12,147 bases of DNA. Origin: a virus. Taxonomy: Duplodnaviria > Heunggongvirae > Uroviricota > Caudoviricetes. Within the stretch, counting starts at the first letter, position 1. Each line of letters begins with the position of its first letter. The stretch lies in IMG/VR virus record IMGVR_UViG_2778261218_000003. One strand, 5' to 3'. This document shows positions 6,428-12,147 of this stretch, one piece after another. Made by a program: the position numbers and the translations under genes. Under the pieces are notes generated by a model, which was not told the DNA's origin, did not search any database, and worked only from the letters and a program-made list of their open reading frames with translations.

Positions 6428-6700
6428 ATGTCTCATACAATCCGTGATAAACAGAAACTGAAAGCGCGTGCCAGTAAGATTCAGGGCCAGGTCGTGGCGC
6501 TCAAGAAAATGCTCGACGAGCCGCACGAATGCGCTGCAGTTTTACAACAGATTGCTGCTATCCGTGGCGCGGTAAACGGTCTGATGCGGGAAGTGATTAA
6601 AGGTCATCTGACGGAACACATCGTTCACCAGGGGGATGAGCTAAAACGTGAAGAAGATCTGGATGTCGTTCTGAAGGTGCTGGATTCATATATCAAATAA
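6428..6700 (+). CDS. rcnR: Ni/Co-responsive transcriptional repressor RcnR (CsoR/RcnR family)
   Basis: 90-aa ORF ([38 protein letters not shown]...), the size and sequence of RcnR, divergent from rcnA. Confidence 0.9.
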
Positions 6701-6789
6701 TTTATTAACGCGATTGTAAAACTGCCGTTTTTCCTCGTTTACAACGCGTGCGCTGGACATTACCATCCTCCTCTGCGATTTATCATCGC

Positions 6790-6841
6790 AACCAAACGAC
6801 TCGGGGTGCCCTTCTGCGTGAAGGCTGAGAAATACCCGTAT
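6790..6841 (+). promoter_or_regulatory. Truncated TPP riboswitch (5' half of the thiM leader aptamer)
   Basis: AACCAAACGACTCGGGGTGCCCTTCTGCGTGAAGGCTGAGAAATACCCGTAT matches my recollection of the E. coli thiM TPP aptamer through P2, P3 and the CUGAGA junction. The expected continuation (CACCTGATCTGGATAATGCCAGCG...) is absent; from 6842 the sequence is unrelated and AT-rich. Confidence 0.7.
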
Positions 6842-6970
6842 TTTCTCATTTAGTGTTTTTTGTGGTTCTGGGTTGTTCGTGGCTGTTTGTGTATGTATTT
6901 GATATTTAAATAATTATTGTATTTTCTTGTTTGTTGTTGTTCGTTGCTGTTCGTAGGGCTTCAACGAAAT

Positions 6971-6994
6971 GTGTGGTCAGTTGTGTGGTCAGTT
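6971..6994 (+). repeat. Perfect tandem 12-bp direct repeat upstream of int (putative arm-type recombinase or IHF binding sites)
   Basis: GTGTGGTCAGTT at 6971-6982 and again at 6983-6994, with further GTTCGT-containing iterations at 6871-6882 and 6933-6957, all between the island junction and the int start. Confidence 0.5.
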
Positions 6995-7029
6995 TTTTGA
7001 GGCTGGAGGACTGAAAAGAGGATCTGATA

Positions 7030-8250
7030 GTGGGAAAAGCACTAAACAAACTGAGCGATTCGACGTTAAAAAAATTGGCGGCTGTCCAGGCAGAAAAAGA
7101 GCGTTTTTACTCCGACGGGGGCGGGCTGGAGATTAAACACTCAAAGGGCGGCAAATTAACCTGGTATTTCCGGTACCGAACGGGAGGCCGTGAGGTTGCC
7201 GCAGAGCGGTTAAAGCTGGGGGCTTACCCTGAATTGTCGCTGAAAGCTGCAAGGGAAAAACGCGCACAGTGCCGGGCATGGCTGGCTGAGGGTAAAAACC
7301 CCCGTTATGAGTTGTGCGCCACAGTACAGGAAGCGCTAAAACCCGTTACGGTGAAGGAGGCGATTAACTACTGGCTGGATGAATATGCGAAGGATAACCG
7401 CAAAGACTACATAAAGCTGGTGCAACGTATGGATAAGCACATCATTTGCCATATAGGGGCAATTCCTCTTGATAAATGCGATACAAGGCAGTGGATCGCA
7501 TGTTTTGACCGTGTACGAAAAAAAGCACCAGTAGCAGCGGGGCACGTCATGCAAACCTGCAAACAGGCGCTAAAGTTCTGCCGCAGGAGGCGCTACGCGT
7601 TCAGTAATGCCCTGGACGATTTGATCGTCAGCGATGTGGGTAAGAGAGCAGAAATTCGCGAGAGGGTGCACAGCAACAGCGAATTAAAGGAAATTCTACG
7701 TGCTATTGATAGTGATGTGTTCGCGCCTTACTACAGCGCGTTAATGCGCTTGCTGATTGTGTTCGGGTGCAGAACGGCAGAGGTCAGACTTTCAGAGATC
7801 AAAGAATGGGATCTGAAAGAAATGTTGTGGACAGTACCAAGAGAGCACAGCAAAACGAAGGTAACGATATTCAGGCCAATCCCCGATGGCATTTTGCCGT
7901 TCATTCAGAAGCTGGTGGATCAGAACCGGCATACAGGGTTATTGCTCGGAGAACTGAAAAAAGATACCACGGTAGCGCAATATGGGCGAAATGCGCATAA
8001 GCGGCTTAAGCAGGAACACTGGACGCTGCATGACTTCCGGCACACGTTTACAACGATGCTGAACGATTTAGGTGTCGATCCGCATATCGTTGAGCACATC
8101 ACAGCGCATCAGATGCCCGGTCAGCAAAAAACCTATAACCATTCACGCTATTTACAGGCGAAGCGGGACGCGTTGAATCTGTGGGTTGAGCGTCTCGATG
8201 TGCTGGCTGGAAATCATGAAAATATTATTATGCTAAAGGTGGCTAAATGA
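7030..8250 (+). CDS. int: Tyrosine site-specific integrase, P4/CP4-57 family
   Basis: 406-aa ORF with a GTG start and RBS AAGAGGA at 7014-7020. The N-terminus is P4-int-like (GGLEIKHSKGGKLTWYFRYRTGGREV...GAYPELSLKAAR). The C-terminal catalytic region carries HDFRHTF (H-x-x-R) and a downstream Tyr (KTYNHSRY). Confidence 0.9.
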   Translation: MGKALNKLSDSTLKKLAAVQAEKERFYSDGGGLEIKHSKGGKLTWYFRYRTGGREVAAERLKLGAYPELSLKAAREKRAQCRAWLAEGKNPRYELCATVQEALKPVTVKEAINYWLDEYAKDNRKDYIKLVQRMDKHIICHIGAIPLDKCDTRQWIACFDRVRKKAPVAAGHVMQTCKQALKFCRRRRYAFSNALDDLIVSDVGKRAEIRERVHSNSELKEILRAIDSDVFAPYYSALMRLLIVFGCRTAEVRLSEIKEWDLKEMLWTVPREHSKTKVTIFRPIPDGILPFIQKLVDQNRHTGLLLGELKKDTTVAQYGRNAHKRLKQEHWTLHDFRHTFTTMLNDLGVDPHIVEHITAHQMPGQQKTYNHSRYLQAKRDALNLWVERLDVLAGNHENIIMLKVAK

Positions 8251-9020
8251 AATTACCAAAAAGACTCTATTATCCGCTACCTGAAGCAGCAGAAAAGTTA
8301 AGCTGTGCAATAAAAGATCTTTATCATTACGCATATATAGGTGCTCTTGATATTTCTGTATATATACCAAAAATTGATGCTAAAAAATTCAATTTATCAT
8401 TATGTCATTTTATCAATGGTTGTAATGAGGAAGAATTAATAAAATATCCGTTCAATGATGAATCTGTTGTTTTTGGCAGTAATTTTACAGTTGGTTTAAC
8501 TGGTGACTCTGAATTTTTAGATAGTGCTATTATTGGTCCGGTAGGGAATTCTATAAAATGTTATTATGTTAGCAGTTTGGAAGGGTTTTATTATACTCCA
8601 GCAAATGTTTTTGCTGATGCTGAATTTAGCATGAGACAATATATAAAATGTTCTCATCTTACGAATAGGTATGGTGATGATAATCTCATGTATGTTTTTT
8701 GTAAGGGTGGTTATGAGTTTGATGTTAACTATTTGTGTGTGATGGCTAGTGATTTAGATAATATAAAAAATACGGGAGACTTCCCGAAGCTAACAGAAGA
8801 TAGCCCAAAAGCATCGTCAAAAAGGAATGAGGTTATTTACTCTTTAATTAAACTTATTCCAGAAATGGGTGATGTAGACCTGGACACGGAATCATTACCT
8901 AAAATAGCGGATTTAATTGATTCTATAGCTGCATCCAGAGGGATAGAATTTCCCAAAACACACTGGCAGACATGGCAAAAGTATTTGGGGCGTGAACCTC
9001 AACAAAAACGTAAAAAGTGA
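8247..9020 (+). CDS. Hypothetical protein, AT-rich orphan cargo gene, no family recognised
   Basis: 257-aa ORF whose ATG overlaps the int stop (ATGA), with RBS AAGGTGG at 8235-8241. It is strongly AT-rich compared with both flanks (by eye, not computed). I recognise no catalytic motif. The N-terminus (KRLYYPLPEAAEKLSCAIKDLYHY) may be a small helix-turn-helix-like segment. Confidence 0.6.
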   Translation: MKLPKRLYYPLPEAAEKLSCAIKDLYHYAYIGALDISVYIPKIDAKKFNLSLCHFINGCNEEELIKYPFNDESVVFGSNFTVGLTGDSEFLDSAIIGPVGNSIKCYYVSSLEGFYYTPANVFADAEFSMRQYIKCSHLTNRYGDDNLMYVFCKGGYEFDVNYLCVMASDLDNIKNTGDFPKLTEDSPKASSKRNEVIYSLIKLIPEMGDVDLDTESLPKIADLIDSIAASRGIEFPKTHWQTWQKYLGREPQQKRKK

Positions 9021-9047
9021 TATCACGTGCTGATAGTGTGATATCAC
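9017..9047 (+). promoter_or_regulatory. Two copies of the perfect 10-bp palindrome GTGATATCAC, 21 bp apart (operator-like)
   Basis: GTGATATCAC at 9017-9026 and 9038-9047, each self-complementary, with centres two helical turns apart. They sit in the short spacer upstream of alpA. Confidence 0.45.
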
Positions 9048-9077
9048 ACACACCACATTTCATCACCGCCTACAATC

Positions 9078-9109
9078 GCCCTCGTTCTATAACGTTCGAG
9101 GGCTTTTTT
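9078..9109 (+). terminator. Terminator-like hairpin abutting the alpA start codon
   Basis: Stem GCCCTCG (9078-9084) / CGAGGGC (9097-9103), 12-nt loop, then TTTTTT (9104-9109) running directly into the alpA ATG at 9110. Confidence 0.45.
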
Positions 9110-9334
9110 ATGAACCAATACAAACAATCCCAATTACCAGCAGATCGAGTAATCCGTGAGGATGAATGTCGAAACTTAACAGGTGTTAGCCGTACCACAC
9201 GCTACGAACTGGAGAAAAAAGGGAATTTCCCGTCACGCCGTAATCTGGGTGGTCGTTCAGTAGGTTGGCTGCTTTCCGAAGTTATGGAATGGGTGCAAAG
9301 CCGTGATCGCGTTAATTCAGGTAAGGCAGCGTAG
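9110..9334 (+). CDS. alpA: AlpA-family phage regulatory protein (small winged-HTH excisionase/activator)
   Basis: The track ORF (9017-9334) is trimmed to the ATG at 9110, giving 74 aa. The protein (MNQYKQSQLPADRVIREDECRNLTGVSRTTRYELEKKGNFPSRRNLGGRSVGWLLSEVMEWV) has the AlpA/Vis-type pattern and sits downstream of int as in CP4-57-like islands. Confidence 0.8.
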   Translation: MNQYKQSQLPADRVIREDECRNLTGVSRTTRYELEKKGNFPSRRNLGGRSVGWLLSEVMEWVQSRDRVNSGKAA

Positions 9335-9342
9335 GGGGAATA

Positions 9343-9471
9343 ATGGCACATAAAACAAAGGCGACCGTAAGAGGTCGCCAGTGGTACAGCACTAAACTTG
9401 AGCGCGTTCAGAATACCAATTTACTAACATCCCGCCAATGCGCTAACGGTATCCACCAGCAATCAACTTAA
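9343..9471 (+). CDS. Possible 42-aa small ORF between alpA and the ant-like gene
   Basis: Found by manual translation: MAHKTKATVRGRQWYSTKLERVQNTNLLTSRQCANGIHQQST, with RBS AGGGGG 4 nt upstream of the ATG at 9343. It contains hairpin copy 1. Coding status is uncertain. Confidence 0.25.
   Translation: MAHKTKATVRGRQWYSTKLERVQNTNLLTSRQCANGIHQQST
9349..9384 (+). repeat. Conserved hairpin element, copy 1
   Basis: ATAAAACAAAGGCGACC-GTAAGA-GGTCGCCAGTGG, with a 7-bp stem GGCGACC/GGTCGCC. Copy 2 at 10583-10619 has identical stem and flanks but a different loop. Confidence 0.6.
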
Positions 9472-9490
9472 TTTTATAGCAGGAGTTTTT

Positions 9491-10291
9491 ATGAAACAGC
9501 GAAAAACGCCCGTACAGGGGCAGGGCTTCGTTCGGCCTGAAAACCAGAATCTGCAAAATTTCGGCGAAATTATCCCGGTTATTTCCGGCATTATTGGCGG
9601 GTGTGAAACCAATATTGTTAGCGCCAGAGCGTTGCATAAGGCGTTAGGTGTAGGTCGCGTTTTCCGTTCGTGGATCAAGGGGCGCATTGAAGAATACGGC
9701 TTCACGGAAGGCGTGGATTATGAGGTTGTTGAATATTTGAGCCGACCCGATCCGGTGAGCGCAAAATCTCGCCAGCAAACAGCTCTTGAGTACATCATTA
9801 CCGTGAACATGGCGAAAGAACTGGCGATGGTCGAACGCACCGAACAGGGCCGCGCCGTTCGCCAGTACTTCATCAAATGCGAGGAGGAGCTACACAAGGT
9901 AGCGCCAGTGCGTTCCGCAGTGTTACGCCGGGAACTGAAAGCCCGTATCACAGTTGCCAGCTACTTTAAGCCAATGTGTGCCGCGCTGGAGGCGTACCGG
10001 GCTGAACTGGGTAAAAACACTCTACAGCACCACTACACCACGGAAGCCAATATGCTGGCGCGTATCGTGCTGGGCGGTATGACTGCCAGACAGTGGGCAC
10101 TGGCGAACGGCATTACAGGCGAACCACGCGACCACATGAGCACGTTGCAGCTTGAGCACCTTTCTTACCTTGAGCAGAGCAATATCACGCTGATTGAGTT
10201 AGGCCAGGGCTACCACCAGCGGAAAGCTGAATTAATTCGTCTTTCGCAGCGTTGGTTAGCCCGTCGCATGGAGGAAAACAGCCATGTGTAA
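9491..10291 (+). CDS. Phage antirepressor-like protein (AntA N-terminal region plus KilAC/ANT-type region)
   Basis: 266-aa ORF with RBS AGGAG at 9481-9485. The N-terminal segment (NIVSARALHKALGVGRVFRSWIKGRIEEYGFTEGVDY) resembles the AntA domain. The central segment (TALEYIITVNMAKELAMVERTEQGRAVRQYFIKCEEEL) resembles the KilAC domain. Both are from memory of those families. Confidence 0.7.
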   Translation: MKQRKTPVQGQGFVRPENQNLQNFGEIIPVISGIIGGCETNIVSARALHKALGVGRVFRSWIKGRIEEYGFTEGVDYEVVEYLSRPDPVSAKSRQQTALEYIITVNMAKELAMVERTEQGRAVRQYFIKCEEELHKVAPVRSAVLRRELKARITVASYFKPMCAALEAYRAELGKNTLQHHYTTEANMLARIVLGGMTARQWALANGITGEPRDHMSTLQLEHLSYLEQSNITLIELGQGYHQRKAELIRLSQRWLARRMEENSHV

Positions 10292-10726
10292 CGCTCTGAC
10301 CGTTACAAAAAGAGAAAGCGCCCCGTTGCCGGAGCGCCTTTGTGAACGAATAGCCTACTGCGCCATATTGCTTACTGTCTACGAGGCAGATTATAGCGTT
10401 GTGGTCGCACAGAGTGAAGGCGCTGATCACCGTTACTACAGCACACCAGAAATGCAGAATATTTTGCTGCAAAATGTCGTTGGTCACGCTGTCCGGAAAG
10501 CAAAAAATTTTGCTGGTGGCGCGACTGATGCGATTTTGTCAGGTAGCCAGGTGCTGATCAATCTGATGTCTGGTTTCGTTCTGGATAAAACAAAGGCGAC
10601 CGCAGAGGGTCGCCAGTGGGTATTACGGCAAATCAAACCTGAATGCATCGCCAACAATGCTGCATTTGTGGCTGGTGGGCAAATCTTTAGTGGAATTTTT
10701 TCCCTGTTGCCTGCACTGGGTAATGG
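10284..10726 (+). CDS. Hypothetical ORF coupled to the ant-like gene; 3' end undefined
   Basis: ATG at 10284 overlaps the ant stop (ATGTGTAA) and is preceded by GGAGG. The first ~150 codons look protein-like, but the frame has no stop until 12080 and runs antisense through three minus-strand genes. The true extent is unknown; it may be a truncated or fused gene remnant. The end coordinate is arbitrary. Confidence 0.3.
10583..10619 (+). repeat. Conserved hairpin element, copy 2
   Basis: ATAAAACAAAGGCGACC-GCAGAG-GGTCGCCAGTGG, same stem and flanks as copy 1, with loop substitutions only. Confidence 0.6.
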
Positions 10727-10909
10727 TTACTTGTATCGCGTATTCCTGCACAAAACAGGACTGCTTTTTTTGATGAAATCCTCAAGCAAAAAACACTCTG
10801 TTGATGCTCTTGGTAATTCTCTGGTGGAAGGATGGGGTTTTATCCCCCATTTTCGTTTACGTTCTTCCAGAAAGGAGGTGAGTATATCTAGTTTCTGTGC
10901 GTCCATCAT
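10727..10909 (-). CDS. Small hypothetical protein (60 aa), distal gene of the minus-strand operon
   Basis: ORF MMDAQKLDILTSFLEERKRKWGIKPHPSTRELPRASTECF... with a weak RBS (AAGAG). Its position in a same-strand array after the RHH gene supports it modestly. Confidence 0.3.
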   Translation of the reverse strand: MMDAQKLDILTSFLEERKRKWGIKPHPSTRELPRASTECFLLEDFIKKSSPVLCRNTRYK

Positions 10910-10966
10910 TTTTCTCTTGGATACTGCTTTGTGCCATGGATCCTCACACCACGGCGCTGATAGTGG

Positions 10967-11146
10967 TTATTTCTGCTCTTCAACATCACCATGTCGTGAT
11001 GTTTTCCAGGTATATAGCCCCATTTTTGTGCGCTTGTGCGTTTTAAGAAATTGCTCAAGGTGGAAGGTTTTAACCTTTCCCTGTTCGGTTTCTTGTGCAA
11101 TTTCTTTCGCCATTTGCTGGGCTAAAAAATCTTTTAATTTAGGCAT
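10967..11146 (-). CDS. Small hypothetical protein (59 aa), second gene of the minus-strand operon
   Basis: Below the ORF-track size cutoff; found by manual translation: MPKLKDFLAQQMAKEIAQETEQGKVKTFHLEQFLKTHKRTKMGLYTWKTSRHGDVEEQK. RBS AGGGGG lies 7 nt upstream and it has balanced, charged, helical composition. It starts 70 nt after the RHH gene stop. Confidence 0.45.
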   Translation of the reverse strand: MPKLKDFLAQQMAKEIAQETEQGKVKTFHLEQFLKTHKRTKMGLYTWKTSRHGDVEEQK

Positions 11147-11215
11147 GGTTCGCCCCCTGCTTACAGTCTGGCGCTCGAGTTCCTTAGGCTCTGGCGCGAA
11201 TGGTGATTATTCTGG

Positions 11216-11515
11216 CTACCCTTTGGCCTTGCGCCGCTGGAGTTCTTCACGAGCAACGGAAACAAGCTGCTCTATATTTTCGGCGAGTTCGACCCCTATT
11301 TTTTCCATTTGTTCCAGCGCATCGAGCGAAGAAACCAGGGGATTTTCTCCGCTTCCTTCTGCCTGGCGGCGGGCGATCTCACCGCGTACAGCCGTAACTA
11401 TAAAATTCGCTTTAGTTTCCCCTGGCTGTAGGGATGCCTCAATGCCACTCACTACTTCATGTGGAAATCTGGCATTCAGTTGCTGTGACTTATTGTTAAC
11501 AGAACTCGTGGACAT
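11216..11515 (-). CDS. Ribbon-helix-helix (Arc/MetJ/CopG-like) DNA-binding protein, possibly YlcI/YnfO-like
   Basis: The track ORF (11216-11692) is trimmed to the ATG at 11515, which has a strong RBS (GGAGGTG). The 99-aa protein (MSTSSVNNKSQQLNARFPHEVVSGIEASLQPGETKANFIVTAVRGEIARR...) has the beta-strand then helix pattern of RHH regulators at its N-terminus. It faces an operator-rich divergent region. Confidence 0.65.
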   Translation of the reverse strand: MSTSSVNNKSQQLNARFPHEVVSGIEASLQPGETKANFIVTAVRGEIARRQAEGSGENPLVSSLDALEQMEKIGVELAENIEQLVSVAREELQRRKAKG

Positions 11516-11558
11516 GTTTGCACCTCCGATTAATAACGGGATGCAGTGTAATACAAAA

Positions 11559-11614
11559 GTGAATACCAAAAAAGACTTGAAATGGTATTCACCAAAATGT
11601 AATCTGAATACCAC
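11559..11614 (+). promoter_or_regulatory. Operator-like repeats in the divergent control region
   Basis: Perfect 10-bp inverted repeat GTGAATACCA (11559-11568) / TGGTATTCAC (11583-11592) with a 14-bp spacer, plus a third half-site TGAATACCAC at 11605-11614. They lie between the RHH gene start (11515, minus) and the plus-strand gene at 11715. Confidence 0.5.
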
Positions 11615-11714
11615 AAGGGCTGATACATGCAATTCAGCAATTGAAACGACGAAGCCCCGCACTGTTGGAGCAGTAACGGGGCTTCTAACCAAACCGTTAA
11701 CAGGAGTAACGATT

Positions 11715-12080
11715 ATGGCTGGAACACAGCATACCCAAACTCACCCTAAATTTATATACACCTTCTTGGCGGTGCACCGTGATTGCATAGCTGACGGTAA
11801 AAACACTGTACACGTAGCCGCCGATACGCTGGTTGATGCCTGCGAGATGCTCAATGACATGGGCTATATCTCGGCAACATGGAAAGGGCGCGAAGAAAAC
11901 ACGCTGTTTATTCAGAAATGCGAGAACAATTTTATCTGGCGTTTTATCGCCCTGAGTACAGCACAACCGCGCGTGATTCACATCGAGGCCACCAGCGAAC
12001 AGGAAGCCCGCCAGCAATCTCCTGATGGCTGCGTGATGGTATTCGCTGCCCGTATTCGCCAGGAGGTGGAACATGTGTAA
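11715..12080 (+). CDS. Hypothetical protein (121 aa), first gene of the rightward operon
   Basis: ATG at 11715 with RBS AGGAG at 11702-11706 (MAGTQHTQTHPKFIYTFLAVHRDCIADGKNTVHVAAD...). It is in frame with, and forms the 3' part of, the 598-aa track ORF. I prefer it to the overlapping minus ORF 11697-12116, which is Cys/His-rich and low-complexity. Confidence 0.55.
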   Translation: MAGTQHTQTHPKFIYTFLAVHRDCIADGKNTVHVAADTLVDACEMLNDMGYISATWKGREENTLFIQKCENNFIWRFIALSTAQPRVIHIEATSEQEARQQSPDGCVMVFAARIRQEVEHV

Positions 12081-12147
12081 TGCAACATGGCCTGATGCAG
12101 CGGTAGACGCTATCAAAACGCTGATGGATTCACTTATTGAGATTTCT
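12073..12147 (+). CDS. Hypothetical protein, 5' fragment (continues beyond window)
   Basis: ATG at 12073 overlaps the upstream stop (ATGTGTAA) and follows RBS AGGAGGTGG at 12061-12069. Only 25 codons are visible (MCNATWPDAAVDAIKTLMDSLIEIS). Confidence 0.3.
   Translation, partial: MCNATWPDAAVDAIKTLMDSLIEIS

What the first reader, a model, noticed from the sequence alone, without database searches (positions are those of the whole stretch)
9017..9109. Twin perfect palindromes and a terminator-like hairpin immediately upstream of alpA
Seen: GTGATATCAC at 9017-9026 and 9038-9047, each a perfect palindrome, with centres two helical turns apart. Seen: a GC stem plus T-run hairpin (9078-9109) whose T-tract ends one base before the alpA ATG. 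Inferred: the paired palindromes look like a dimer-of-dimers operator. A terminator abutting the start codon suggests alpA expression depends on read-through or antitermination from the int-cargo transcript, or on a promoter in 9048-9077 (TACAAT at 9071-9076 is a possible -10).
Basis: partly seen in the sequence, partly recalled or inferred. Interest (0 to 1): 0.45.

Follow-up and report, generated by a model that had tools for sequence, protein, structure and literature searches.

The report
Conserved control region upstream of alpA
The 93 bases before alpA, the master switch of a phage-parasitic island in E. coli, hold two strictly conserved protein-binding palindromes and a conserved hairpin that hides alpA's ribosome-binding site, so this is a real but so far undescribed control region rather than a simple terminator.

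Summary
GTGATATCAC lies at 9017-9026 and 9038-9047; the second copy extends to the 14-bp palindrome 9036-9049. A hairpin (9078-9084 / 9097-9103) plus T6 (9104-9109) abuts the alpA ATG at 9110.

Both features are selected. In about 13 diverged satellites of the int-orf257-alpA type (AlpA 58-86% identical; Escherichia, Serratia, Providencia, Klebsiella), the two palindromes are almost always letter-perfect. They sit 20-22 bp centre to centre and 28-30 nt before the hairpin, while the spacer and flanks vary freely. They occur only where the uncharacterised upstream gene (orf257 family) is present.

The hairpin shows strong covariation: 10 of 11 pairs carry changes on both sides, and 0 of 500 shuffles reach the observed score. 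Its 3' arm always contains the ribosome-binding site. The T-run is missing in about half of the relatives. The conserved role is therefore occlusion of the ribosome-binding site, and termination is an extra in the window's clade.

The hairpin also contains a doubled GTTCG motif with a 10-bp period. The same motif occurs twice upstream of int (expected 0.04), which fits binding sites for an excision factor.

Best model: an operator-controlled weak promoter, plus a leader hairpin that shields alpA from int-operon read-through. The protein that binds the palindromes is unknown; orf257 is the best candidate. The region is a new member of known kinds of regulatory element, of moderate interest.

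The parts
7030..8250 (+). Tyrosine integrase (int), first gene of the int-orf257 operon
   Evidence: Pfam Arm-DNA-bind_3 and Phage_integrase; PHROG integrase. Its stop overlaps the orf257 start as ATGA.
8247..9020 (+). orf257: an uncharacterised gene whose family always accompanies the twin palindromes. It has a conserved N-terminal ~45 aa, a variable middle and a conserved C-terminal ~70 aa. It is the best island-encoded candidate for the palindrome-binding protein (inferred).
   Evidence: No Pfam, NCBIfam, PHROG or PADLOC match. 15 homologues were found, and all those looked up lie between int and alpA. All 8 satellites found through the palindromes alone encode it, at E 1e-61 to 1e-107. The AF2 N-terminal domain is beta-alpha-alpha; the top Foldseek hits are MerR, BldC, Xis and Cox, but with E >= 2.
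9017..9026 (.). Palindrome 1, GTGATATCAC; contains the orf257 stop codon TGA (9018-9020)
   Evidence: Identical in 12 of 13 family members. The Klebsiella variant GTGAATTCAC is still a perfect palindrome.
9036..9049 (.). Palindrome 2, GTGTGATATCACAC (core 9038-9047), at a fixed 28-30 nt before the hairpin 5' arm
   Evidence: It is an island of maximal information content within variable flanks.
9071..9076 (+). TACAAT, a -10-like hexamer abutting the hairpin. The predicted start at about 9083-9084 would lie inside the 5' arm (inferred).
   Evidence: It is the best -10 score in the region, with a poor -35. TAGAAT/TAAGAT occupies the same place in E. coli relatives. It is not conserved as a -10 in other clades. 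The consensus promoter scan did not call it.
9078..9103 (+). Leader hairpin. The 5' arm GCCCTCG (9078-9084) acts as an anti-Shine-Dalgarno sequence. The 12-nt loop (9085-9096) has an inner C9087-G9094 pair. The 3' arm CGAGGGC (9097-9103) carries the Shine-Dalgarno sequence GAGGG (9098-9102).
   Evidence: Fold of -14.8 kcal/mol, z = -4.0. Covariation in 16 sequences: 90.9% of cells paired, 10 of 11 pairs with changes on both sides, score 0.538 against 0.263 for shuffles (0 of 500 reach it), slid controls <= 0.225. A hairpin is predicted in all 16 sequences; a strict SD-like tetramer lies 9-14 nt before the ATG in 13, and the other 3 have GAGAG there.
9084..9098 (+). Doubled motif GTTCT-N5-GTTCG (direct repeat, 10-bp period) embedded in the hairpin. 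It is a probable binding site for an excision factor (AlpA) or the Int arm domain (inferred).
   Evidence: 3 matches in the window against 0.04 expected; 0 of 200 shuffles reach 3. The motif recurs at the hairpin and upstream of int in L001-L005, and at -140 from alpA without the stem in L076, L077 and L080.
9104..9109 (+). T6 tract directly before the ATG. It makes the hairpin terminator-like in this clade only.
   Evidence: It is absent in L056, L057, L060, L069, L071, L072 and L074.
9110..9334 (+). alpA (74 aa), the master activator / excision factor of PICI satellites of Gram-negative bacteria
   Evidence: Pfam PF05930, 4.6e-17. PHROG 'excisionase and transcriptional regulator'. PDB 8c3t, an AlpA-family protein, at 4.5e-8. 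Role taken from PMC6092414.
6865..6953 (+). Two further copies of the doubled GTTCK-N5-GTTCG motif (6865-6879 and 6939-6953). They lie in the arm between the island's left junction (about 6789) and int.
   Evidence: The junction is inferred from BLAST hits that begin at query position 90.

Best explanation
The segment 9017-9109 is the control region of alpA in a distinct subfamily of enterobacterial PICI-type phage satellites with the gene order int-orf257-alpA. It has two parts.

(1) Twin operator. Two 10-bp dyads lie 20-22 bp apart, on the same face of the helix. A dimeric DNA-binding protein would bind them cooperatively. The protein is not identified; the best candidate is the product of the upstream gene, orf257. 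The operator sits just upstream of, and overlapping, the -35 region of a weak promoter whose -10 (TACAAT, 9071-9076) abuts the hairpin. With a start at 9083-9084 the dyad centres fall at about -41 and -62. It also lies in the path of RNA polymerase leaving the int-orf257 operon.

(2) Leader hairpin. Its 3' arm is alpA's Shine-Dalgarno sequence and its 5' arm is the complementary anti-SD sequence. Any transcript that contains the whole hairpin, such as read-through from the constitutively expressed int-orf257 operon, has alpA's ribosome-binding site closed. In the window's clade such a transcript is also terminated at the U6 tract. A transcript that starts at the operator-controlled promoter begins inside the 5' arm, cannot form the hairpin, and is translated.

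The net effect would be to keep the master activator AlpA silent until the operator-bound factor changes state on helper-phage infection. The doubled GTTCG motif inside the hairpin would then let AlpA (or Int) feed back on its own gene.

Shown: the conservation of the dyads, their spacing and position, their linkage to orf257, the covariation of the hairpin, the SD in its arm, the variable T-run, and the excess of the motif.

Inferred: the identity of the binding protein, the promoter and start site, and the direction of regulation.
For: Dyads. They are letter-perfect in 12 of 13 diverged family members, while the 11-12 nt spacer and the flanks vary. They are unique within each element. The Klebsiella variant GTGAATTCAC keeps the dyad symmetry through a symmetric double change.

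Linkage to orf257. All 8 satellites found through the dyads alone encode an orf257 homologue. Of 6 loci reached through orf257 homologues, 5 carry the dyads or a variant. Islands with DUF6387 or with no gene between int and alpA lack the dyads, although their AlpA is nearly identical.

Hairpin. A hairpin is predicted in all 16 sequences; a strict SD-like tetramer lies 9-14 nt before the ATG in 13, and the other 3 have GAGAG there. The T-run is absent in about half.

Promoter. TACAAT/TAGAAT has the best -10 score, with a poor -35.

Biology. The alpA promoter region is activated by AlpA and by the helper phage. The inducer is unidentified, and int is not AlpA-controlled in EcCICFT073 (PMC6092414; PMC11773190).

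Doubled motif.. Binding sites of recombination directionality factors (RDFs, excision factors) are direct repeats one helical turn apart, found at att and at promoters (PMC7498355, abstract).
Against: No transcription start site, termination data or binding data exist for this element.

No consistently placed sigma-70 promoter is detectable across the family, and the consensus scan called none here.

In non-E. coli clades the '-10' positions pair as the lower stem, so they may be conserved for structure rather than as a promoter.

The DNA-binding fold of the orf257 N-terminus rests on non-significant structural matches, with E >= 2. There is no sequence relation to AlpA or to any solved DNA-binding protein.

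Linkage of the dyads to orf257 is partly forced, because dyad 1 overlaps the gene's stop codon.

Perfect conservation of a 10-mer across genera could instead point to a conserved host or helper-phage protein.

A doubled GTTCG site at +1 to +15 would normally repress, not activate, whereas AlpA is reported to activate its own expression.
Confidence: 0.45

Rival explanations
1. The hairpin is a true intrinsic terminator of the int-orf257 transcript. alpA is then expressed by read-through or processive antitermination, through a helper-phage N/Q-type factor or AlpA itself, from an upstream promoter. The dyads would be the loading or operator site.
For: The window has a 7-bp GC-rich stem plus U6, at -14.8 kcal/mol. 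T-runs of 5-7 are present in the window, L001-L005, L011, L020, L049, L062, L075 and L079. No strong promoter is found in the intergenic region. Known helpers are lambdoid phages, which encode antiterminators (PMC6092414). In Pseudomonas, a promoter element plus a terminator just upstream of the first gene is a known antitermination layout (PMC7969949).
Against: The T-run is absent in 7 of 16 family members, while the stem, its position and the SD in the arm are retained. The 12-nt loop is long for a terminator. Pseudomonas AlpA is a 21Q-like protein unrelated to the 74-aa PF05930 AlpA here (PMC9371919). No nut/boxB or Q-binding layout was seen. Even after read-through the SD would remain paired.
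Confidence: 0.2
2. The hairpin region acts mainly as double-stranded DNA. The doubled GTTCG motif is a binding site for AlpA (as an RDF-type regulator) or for the Int arm-binding domain. The flanking inverted repeat would be secondary.
For: The motif occurs 3 times in the window against 0.04 expected, twice in the att arm upstream of int. The same pattern is found in L001-L005. In L076, L077 and L080 the identical 15-mer CGAACCTTAGCGAAC persists 140 nt upstream of alpA without the stem. The window's hairpin is an inversion of the L062-type hairpin, which preserves a double-stranded site but not an RNA loop sequence. RDF sites are direct repeats one turn apart, at att and at promoters (PMC7498355).
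Against: The outer stem pairs lie outside the motif, yet they covary strongly. That is not expected for a protein site. The SD in the 3' arm and the fixed distance to the ATG point to an RNA-level role. The two functions are not mutually exclusive.
Confidence: 0.25
3. The two palindromes pair with each other in the RNA, forming a 10-bp stem with an 11-nt loop. This would act as a 3'-end stabiliser or processing signal for the int-orf257 mRNA, rather than as a protein operator.
For: RNA folding of 9005-9125 predicts this pairing; total -31.3 kcal/mol, z = -5.1.
Against: A purely structural stem would drift by compensatory change. Instead each arm stays the same perfect palindrome in 12 of 13 lineages. 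In L072 the first arm changed symmetrically to GTGAATTCAC. That keeps its own dyad symmetry and weakens pairing with arm 2.
Confidence: 0.05
4. The dyads are operators of the island's ribbon-helix-helix (RHH) protein, the YlcI/YnfO-like gene at 11216-11515 on the minus strand.
For: In two unrelated phage lineages, arrays of (G)TGATATCA(C) lie between a promoter and an RHH gene. A 10-bp dyad suits an RHH dimer. The window's RHH has an Arc-like QxNxRxP strand.
Against: The RHH gene's own divergent region carries different repeats, and these change with the RHH variant: GTGAATACCA in the window, L004 and L076; TGGCTGACA in L001; GTGTTnAACAC in L005. The twin dyads stay identical throughout. The RHH gene is present in islands that lack the dyads. 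It is not annotated in L002, which has the dyads.
Confidence: 0.05

Closest known systems
alpA promoter region (PalpA) of PICIs of Gram-negative bacteria, such as EcCICFT073 and EcCIMP1
   Same: The element type and gene order are the same (int ... alpA, co-oriented). alpA is the master activator. Its upstream region responds to AlpA and to a helper phage whose inducer is unknown (PMC6092414, PMC11773190).
   Different: No cis-elements have been mapped there. EcCIMP1, which I checked, has a 427-nt int-alpA spacer with no orf257, no GTGATATCAC dyads and a different hairpin. The twin-dyad architecture is confined to the orf257 subfamily. I did not locate EcCICFT073.
Dual-function recombination directionality factors: phage 186 Apl and P4 Vis
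   Same: These are small winged-helix proteins that bind direct repeats one helical turn apart, both at att and at a regulatory region (PMC7498355, abstract). Here the doubled GTTCG motif lies in the att arm next to int and again at alpA's own 5' end.
   Different: Binding by AlpA is not shown, and the Int arm domain is an alternative. The site is embedded in an RNA hairpin. The reported sign for AlpA is activation (PMC6092414). P4 Vis is included from my own knowledge as a further dual-function RDF; I checked no paper on its regulatory sign.
SaPI Stl master repressor and its operator (PICIs of Gram-positive bacteria)
   Same: A satellite-encoded regulator next to int gates the island's cycle and senses helper-phage proteins. 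orf257 has conserved ends and a hypervariable middle, as would be expected of a sensor.
   Different: There is no sequence or demonstrated fold relation. orf257 is co-oriented with int and alpA rather than divergent. DNA binding and interaction with the helper are untested. Work on PICIs of Gram-negative bacteria found activation rather than derepression (PMC6092414).
Rho-independent terminators, and Shine-Dalgarno-sequestering leader hairpins (translational operators)
   Same: The stem is GC-rich and followed by a U-tract in the window. The SD lies in the 3' arm and is paired to an anti-SD sequence close to the start codon.
   Different: The loop is 12 nt, the U-tract is missing in about half of the family, and a protein-site-like doubled motif lies inside the hairpin.
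Processive antitermination: lambda Q / 21Q and Pseudomonas aeruginosa AlpA
   Same: The layout of a promoter-proximal DNA element followed by a terminator just upstream of the first gene (PMC7969949).
   Different: P. aeruginosa AlpA has residues beyond position 140, 8 helices and a 21Q-like fold (PMC9371919). The protein here is a 74-aa PF05930 winged helix. Only the name is shared.
Tandem-dyad operators of ribbon-helix-helix repressors (Arc, Mnt, CopG type), and CRP-type class I/II site geometry
   Same: Short perfect dyads are repeated on one helical face. Unrelated phages use arrays of the same GTGATATCAC motif upstream of RHH genes. The dyad centres are predicted at about -41 and -62.
   Different: The island's own RHH is an unlikely binder. 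The sequence is not a CRP site, because TGTGA-N2-TCACA has a 2-nt rather than a 6-nt gap. The start site is only predicted.

Membership tests
Rho-independent (intrinsic) terminator | GC-rich stem of at least 5 bp directly followed by a U-tract | tested here: met
   A 7-bp stem with 6 G-C pairs, followed by T6 at 9104-9109.
Rho-independent (intrinsic) terminator | Short loop (about 3-8 nt) | tested here: not met
   The loop is 12 nt, which is why the consensus scan did not list the hairpin. An inner C-G pair is predicted.
Rho-independent (intrinsic) terminator | The U-tract is conserved along with the stem in homologues | tested here: not met
   There is no T-run in L056, L057, L060, L069, L071, L072 or L074, although the stem is conserved.
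Rho-independent (intrinsic) terminator | Transcript 3' ends at the U-tract | not testable with these tools
   Needs Term-seq or in vitro transcription.
Shine-Dalgarno-sequestering leader hairpin | The SD sequence lies in a stem arm, paired to an anti-SD, within about 15 nt of the start codon | tested here: met
   GAGGG (9098-9102) lies in the 3' arm. A hairpin is predicted in all 16 homologues; a strict SD-like tetramer lies 9-14 nt before the ATG in 13, and the other 3 have GAGAG there.
Shine-Dalgarno-sequestering leader hairpin | Base pairing maintained by compensatory changes | tested here: met
   90.9% of cells are paired. 10 of 11 pairs carry changes on both sides. 0 of 500 shuffles reach the score, and all slid controls are lower.
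Shine-Dalgarno-sequestering leader hairpin | Opening the stem raises translation | not testable with these tools
   Needs translational fusions with disrupting and compensatory mutations.
Operator for a dyad-symmetric DNA-binding protein (dimer of dimers) | Dyad sequence conserved, spacing held near whole helical turns, spacer sequence free | tested here: met
   12 of 13 lineages are letter-perfect. Centre-to-centre distance is 20-22 bp. The spacer is unconstrained.
Operator for a dyad-symmetric DNA-binding protein (dimer of dimers) | An identified cognate protein that binds it | not testable with these tools
   orf257 is a candidate, based on co-occurrence and a weak fold hint. AlpA, Int, the RHH protein, and host or helper proteins are not excluded.
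PICI satellite of Gram-negative bacteria | Co-oriented int and alpA, followed by a Bro/AntA zone and a primase replication zone, with no phage structural genes | tested here: met
   The window holds int, alpA, AntA and an Icd-like gene. Relatives continue with DUF4222 and a primase, DUF927 or RepA gene. The window itself ends before any primase.
PICI satellite of Gram-negative bacteria | Induction and packaging by a helper phage | not testable with these tools
   No experimental data exist for this element.
Q / P. aeruginosa AlpA-type processive antitermination | An antiterminator protein with a Q-like fold that loads at a promoter-embedded element | tested here: not met
   The protein here is a 74-aa PF05930 winged helix. 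P. aeruginosa AlpA is an 8-helix, 21Q-like protein (PMC9371919).
CRP/FNR-type site | TGTGA-N6-TCACA | tested here: not met
   9037-9048 reads TGTGA-TA-TCACA, so the gap is 2 nt.
Known RNA family (Rfam) | A covariance-model match | tested here: not met
   No match at gathering score for the whole window. No match at E <= 5 for 8900-9500.

The most novel reading that the evidence does not exclude
The orf257-family protein may be the missing helper-phage sensor of this class of PICI satellites in Gram-negative bacteria, a functional analogue of SaPI Stl. In this reading its conserved N-terminal (or C-terminal) domain binds the twin GTGATATCAC dyads, which gate alpA. Its hypervariable central domain, which is swapped by recombination between otherwise identical islands, recognises different helper-phage proteins. 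The dyads, the hairpin that closes the ribosome-binding site, and the AlpA-type doubled site would together form a three-layer switch.
Probability: 0.2. Interest if true: 0.8.

Novelty: new member of a known kind. Interest (0 to 1): 0.5.

Why it matters
How helper phages switch on PICI satellites in Gram-negative bacteria is unresolved. alpA is known to be the master activator and to be induced by the helper, but the inducer and the cis-elements of the alpA promoter region have not been identified (PMC6092414, PMC11773190).

For one widespread subfamily, this analysis gives exact, evolution-validated targets. About 1% of complete E. coli genomes carry it, and it also occurs in Serratia, Providencia, Klebsiella and Salmonella. 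The targets are:
- a 31-bp twin-dyad bait for pull-down or EMSA;
- a hairpin whose arms can be mutated and then compensated;
- a doubled GTTCG site shared with the att arm;
- an uncharacterised, mosaic candidate regulator gene.

The analysis also corrects a tempting misreading. The hairpin is not primarily a terminator, and the AlpA antiterminator of Pseudomonas is not a relevant precedent.

Tried and rejected

(2) Rfam gave no family for the hairpin or the region.

(3) P. aeruginosa AlpA antitermination as a precedent was rejected. It is a different protein family, and only the name is shared.

(4) The island's RHH (YlcI/YnfO-like) as the dyad binder was rejected, because its own operator-like repeats vary with the RHH variant while the dyads do not.

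(5) AlpA as the dyad binder is unlikely. Islands with near-identical AlpA but a DUF6387 gene, or no gene, upstream lack the dyads.

(6) RNA pairing between the two palindromes was rejected on conservation grounds.

(7) A CRP site (the gap is 2 nt, not 6), lambda boxB/nut (wrong loop) and IHF were rejected by inspection.

(8) orf257 function. Nothing was found in Pfam, NCBIfam, PHROGs or PADLOC. The whole-protein fold search had no hit at E < 0.39. The N-terminal domain gave only non-significant MerR/Xis-like hits. hhalign against AlpA and a profile search of the PDB were negative.

(9) A PWM scan for a conserved sigma-70 promoter across the family found no consistent position.

(10) EcCIMP1 was checked and has a different architecture. 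The CFT073 region I fetched turned out to be a lambdoid prophage, not EcCICFT073.

(11) PDB 8c3t (an AlpA-family protein) has no paper in the library.

(12) The 105-aa ORF that starts at the GTG of palindrome 1, in frame with alpA, was rejected. The palindrome-to-ATG distance is 95 in L011 and L003, so the frame is not conserved.
Full report
**Context.** The window runs from a yeh-type fimbrial operon and rcnB-rcnA-rcnR into an integrated element. The element's genes in the window are:
- int, 7030-8250;
- orf257, an unannotated 257-aa gene at 8247-9020, whose start overlaps the int stop;
- alpA, 9110-9334 (PF05930);
- an AntA/Bro-type gene, 9491-10291;
- a ribbon-helix-helix (RHH) YlcI/YnfO-like gene on the minus strand, 11216-11515;
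- an Icd-like gene.

Relatives in E. coli continue with DUF4222 and a primase, DUF927 or RepA gene. This is the gene organisation described for phage-inducible chromosomal islands (PICIs) of Gram-negative bacteria (PMC10111431, PMC6092414). In those islands AlpA is the master activator. Its promoter region is activated by AlpA itself and by a helper phage through an unidentified inducer, and in EcCICFT073 int is not controlled by AlpA (PMC6092414; PMC11773190). The finding therefore sits on the control region of the island's key switch.

**Observation.**
- GTGATATCAC occurs at 9017-9026 and 9038-9047, with centres 21 bp apart. The second copy is part of a 14-bp perfect palindrome, 9036-9049. 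The stop codon of orf257 (TGA, 9018-9020) lies inside the first copy.
- These are the only two matches in the window at up to 1 mismatch. The expectation is 0.31, and 9 of 200 shuffles give two or more. On its own this is only mildly unusual.
- The hairpin GCCCTCG (9078-9084) / CGAGGGC (9097-9103) has a 12-nt loop. T6 follows at 9104-9109, and then the ATG. It folds at -14.8 kcal/mol, z = -4.0. The consensus terminator scan missed it because of the long loop.

**The palindromes are under strong selection.**
- E. coli relatives at 82-89% identity keep both copies.
- A scan of viral contigs for GTGATATCAC-N9-13-GTGATATCAC returned 59 loci. Eight are satellites with alpA directly downstream, with AlpA 58-86% identical to the window's.
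- Loci reached independently through orf257 homologues add Serratia, Providencia, Klebsiella and two metagenomic lineages.
- In 12 of 13 non-redundant lineages both dyads are letter-perfect. The 11-12 nt spacer and the 28-30 nt that follow are essentially free. The dyads occur nowhere else in any of these elements.
- Dyad 2 keeps a constant distance to the 5' arm of the hairpin, even where a loop insertion lengthens the distance to the ATG (L069).
- The one variant lineage, Klebsiella aerogenes L072, has GTGAATTCAC. This is a symmetric double change: it keeps the site's own dyad symmetry but weakens complementarity to the second copy. That argues for recognition of double-stranded DNA by a symmetric protein, and against an RNA stem formed by the two copies.
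- A spacing of 20-22 bp with a free spacer is what cooperative binding on one helical face predicts.

The protein that binds is not known.

**Who binds the dyads?**
- The dyads are tied to orf257. All 8 satellites found by the dyads alone encode an orf257-family protein, at E 1e-61 to 1e-107. Of 6 loci found through orf257 homologues, 5 carry the dyads or the variant. The exception, L073, has a divergent C-terminus.
- Islands with nearly identical AlpA and hairpin, but with a DUF6387 gene or no gene between int and alpA, have no dyads. EcCIMP1 has none either. This argues against AlpA as the binder.
- The island's RHH protein is also unlikely. Its own divergent promoter region carries repeats that change with the RHH variant: GTGAATACCA in the window, L004 and L076; TGGCTGACA in L001; GTGTTnAACAC in L005. 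The dyads stay identical. The RHH gene is also present in islands that lack the dyads.
- orf257 has a conserved N-terminal ~45 residues, a hypervariable ~130-residue middle and a conserved ~70-residue C-terminus. The C-terminus is identical among E. coli variants that are only about 40% identical overall.
- AlphaFold gives a confident beta-alpha-alpha N-terminal domain (pLDDT 86-95). Its best structural neighbours are MerR-family proteins, BldC, Xis and P2 Cox, but at non-significant E-values of 2 or more. Sequence and profile searches found nothing.
- orf257 is thus the best island-encoded candidate, on co-occurrence and a weak fold hint only. The co-occurrence is partly forced by physical overlap. 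A conserved host or helper protein remains possible, and would fit the perfect conservation of the 10-mer across genera.

**Unrelated phages use the same motif.** Two unrelated phage lineages, one low-GC and one high-GC, carry arrays of the same (G)TGATATCA(C) motif between a promoter and an RHH gene. This shows that the motif works as a repressor operator elsewhere. Those phages have no orf257 homologue.

**The hairpin.**
- An alignment of 16 homologous leaders supports an 11-pair stem. 90.9% of cells are paired, and 10 of 11 pairs carry changes on both sides. The covariation score is 0.538 against 0.263 for shuffles (0 of 500 reach it). All slid controls score 0.225 or lower.
- Stems range from GCCCTCG/CGAGGGC through GTCCTCG/CGAGGAC and GCTCTCG/CGAGAGC to CCACCTG/CAGGTGG and ATGCTCCTG/CAGGAGCAT.
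- In every case the 3' arm is the purine-rich Shine-Dalgarno (SD) tract, which begins 9-14 nt before the ATG. Predicted stabilities are -10 to -20 kcal/mol.
- The T-run is present in the window and about half of the family. It is absent in L056, L057, L060, L069, L071, L072 and L074.

The conserved property is therefore an anti-SD/SD hairpin next to the start codon. Intrinsic termination is plausible in the window's clade (U6) but is an add-on. No Rfam family matches.

**A third element inside the hairpin.**
- The pattern GTTCK-N5-GTTCG, a direct repeat with a 10-bp period, occurs three times in the window against 0.04 expected, and 0 of 200 shuffles reach three. The sites are 9084-9098 in the hairpin, and 6865-6879 and 6939-6953. 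The last two lie between the island's left junction (about 6789) and int.
- The same distribution holds in L001-L005.
- In the cspD-site islands L076, L077 and L080, the identical 15-mer CGAACCTTAGCGAAC persists 140 nt upstream of alpA without the flanking stem.
- The window's hairpin is the inversion of the L062-type hairpin. The reverse complement of the window reads GCCCTCGAACGTTATAGAACGAGGGC, against GCCCTCGAACTTTAACGAACGAGGGC in L062.
- Direct repeats one helical turn apart, at att and at a promoter, are the signature of dual-function recombination directionality factors such as 186 Apl (PMC7498355). An analogous 'doubled motif' in attP arms has been noted for helper-embedded PICIs, with Int or AlpA proposed as the binder (PMC10111431).
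- I infer that this is an AlpA site, or less likely an Int-arm site, and that it provides feedback on alpA.

**Mechanism (inferred).**
- The int-orf257 operon is transcribed toward alpA. A transcript that contains the full hairpin has alpA's ribosome-binding site closed, and in this clade is probably terminated at the U6 tract.
- The only good -10 in the spacer, TACAAT at 9071-9076 (TAGAAT or TAAGAT in E. coli relatives), has a poor -35.
- That -10 would place the start at about 9083-9084, inside the 5' arm. Such a transcript could not form the hairpin.
- The dyad centres would then lie at about -41 and -62, the classic positions for an activator. Equally, they overlap the -35 region, as a repressor site would.

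This gives a consistent picture of an insulated, operator-gated master switch. It remains a model for three reasons. No conserved promoter position could be found across the family. The '-10' positions form the lower stem in other clades. A doubled site at +1 to +15 would normally repress, whereas AlpA is reported to activate its own expression.

**Comparison with known systems.**
That protein has a 21Q-like fold (PMC9371919, PMC7969949) and is unrelated to the 74-aa PF05930 protein here.
- The dyads are not a CRP site, because the gap is 2 nt rather than 6.
- The closest functional analogies are RDF-type dual regulators (Apl, Vis) for the doubled motif, SD-sequestering leader hairpins and terminators for the stem-loop, and, speculatively, the SaPI Stl sensor-repressor for orf257.

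**Verdict.** These are ordinary kinds of bacterial regulatory element, but in a conserved and undescribed combination. They sit at a locus where the cis-elements and the helper-phage inducer are still unknown. About 66 of 5,426 complete E. coli genomes carry the full region. Interest is moderate.

Noticed in passing
window 6865-6879, 6939-6953 and 9084-9098: The doubled direct-repeat motif GTTCK-N5-GTTCG (10-bp period) occurs twice in the arm between the island junction and int, and once inside the alpA leader hairpin. That is 3 matches against 0.04 expected. E. coli relatives show the same pattern. It is probably a binding site for AlpA (as an excision factor) or for the Int arm domain.
   Followed up: partly
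window 11216-11515 (minus strand) and 11555-11620: A YlcI/YnfO-like ribbon-helix-helix gene with an Arc-like strand (QLNARFP). Its divergent upstream region holds three GTGAATACCA-type repeats. In relatives the repeats change with the RHH variant (TGGCTGACA in L001, GTGTTnAACAC in L005), like an immunity region.
   Followed up: partly
window 10284-12080: The mechanical 598-aa ORF is probably not a gene. Only residues 550-593 match the Icd-like family (NF033153), and the RHH gene lies on the other strand within it. The real Icd-like gene probably starts near the ATG at 11716.
   Followed up: no
window 8247-9020, alignment A2: orf257 is mosaic. E. coli variants that are only about 40% identical overall share an identical ~70-aa C-terminus and a similar N-terminus. 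This implies recombination that swaps the middle domain.
   Followed up: partly
loci L013-L068 (low-GC phages of about 55 kb, e.g. L039 4857-4975) and L040, L042, L053 (high-GC): Unrelated phages carry arrays of 4-7 (G)TGATATCA(C) palindromes at a spacing of about 11-12 bp. The arrays lie between a sigma-70-like promoter and a ribbon-helix-helix gene. The same 10-mer therefore appears to serve as an operator in other lineages.
   Followed up: partly
window 9360-9379: A GC-rich hairpin (GGCGACC...GGTCGCC) lies just after alpA. It reads as a terminator on the minus strand, where it is followed by TTTGTTTTAT. It might stop leftward transcription from entering alpA.
   Followed up: no
The DUF6387-type island L079 has the palindrome TCACCGtcgCGGTGA at a similar place upstream of the hairpin. 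This may be chance, or a hint of helper-repressor mimicry.
   Followed up: no
window 9009-9016 with 9104-9112: RNA folding of 9005-9125 pairs the A-run before palindrome 1 with the U-run after the hairpin, which closes the whole leader (-31.3 kcal/mol, z = -5.1). The pairing is not conserved outside the E. coli clade.
   Followed up: no
window about 6789: BLAST hits to related islands inserted at other chromosomal sites begin at query position 90 of 6700-12147. This places the island's left junction about 90 bp after rcnR. No tRNA gene is present in the window.
   Followed up: no
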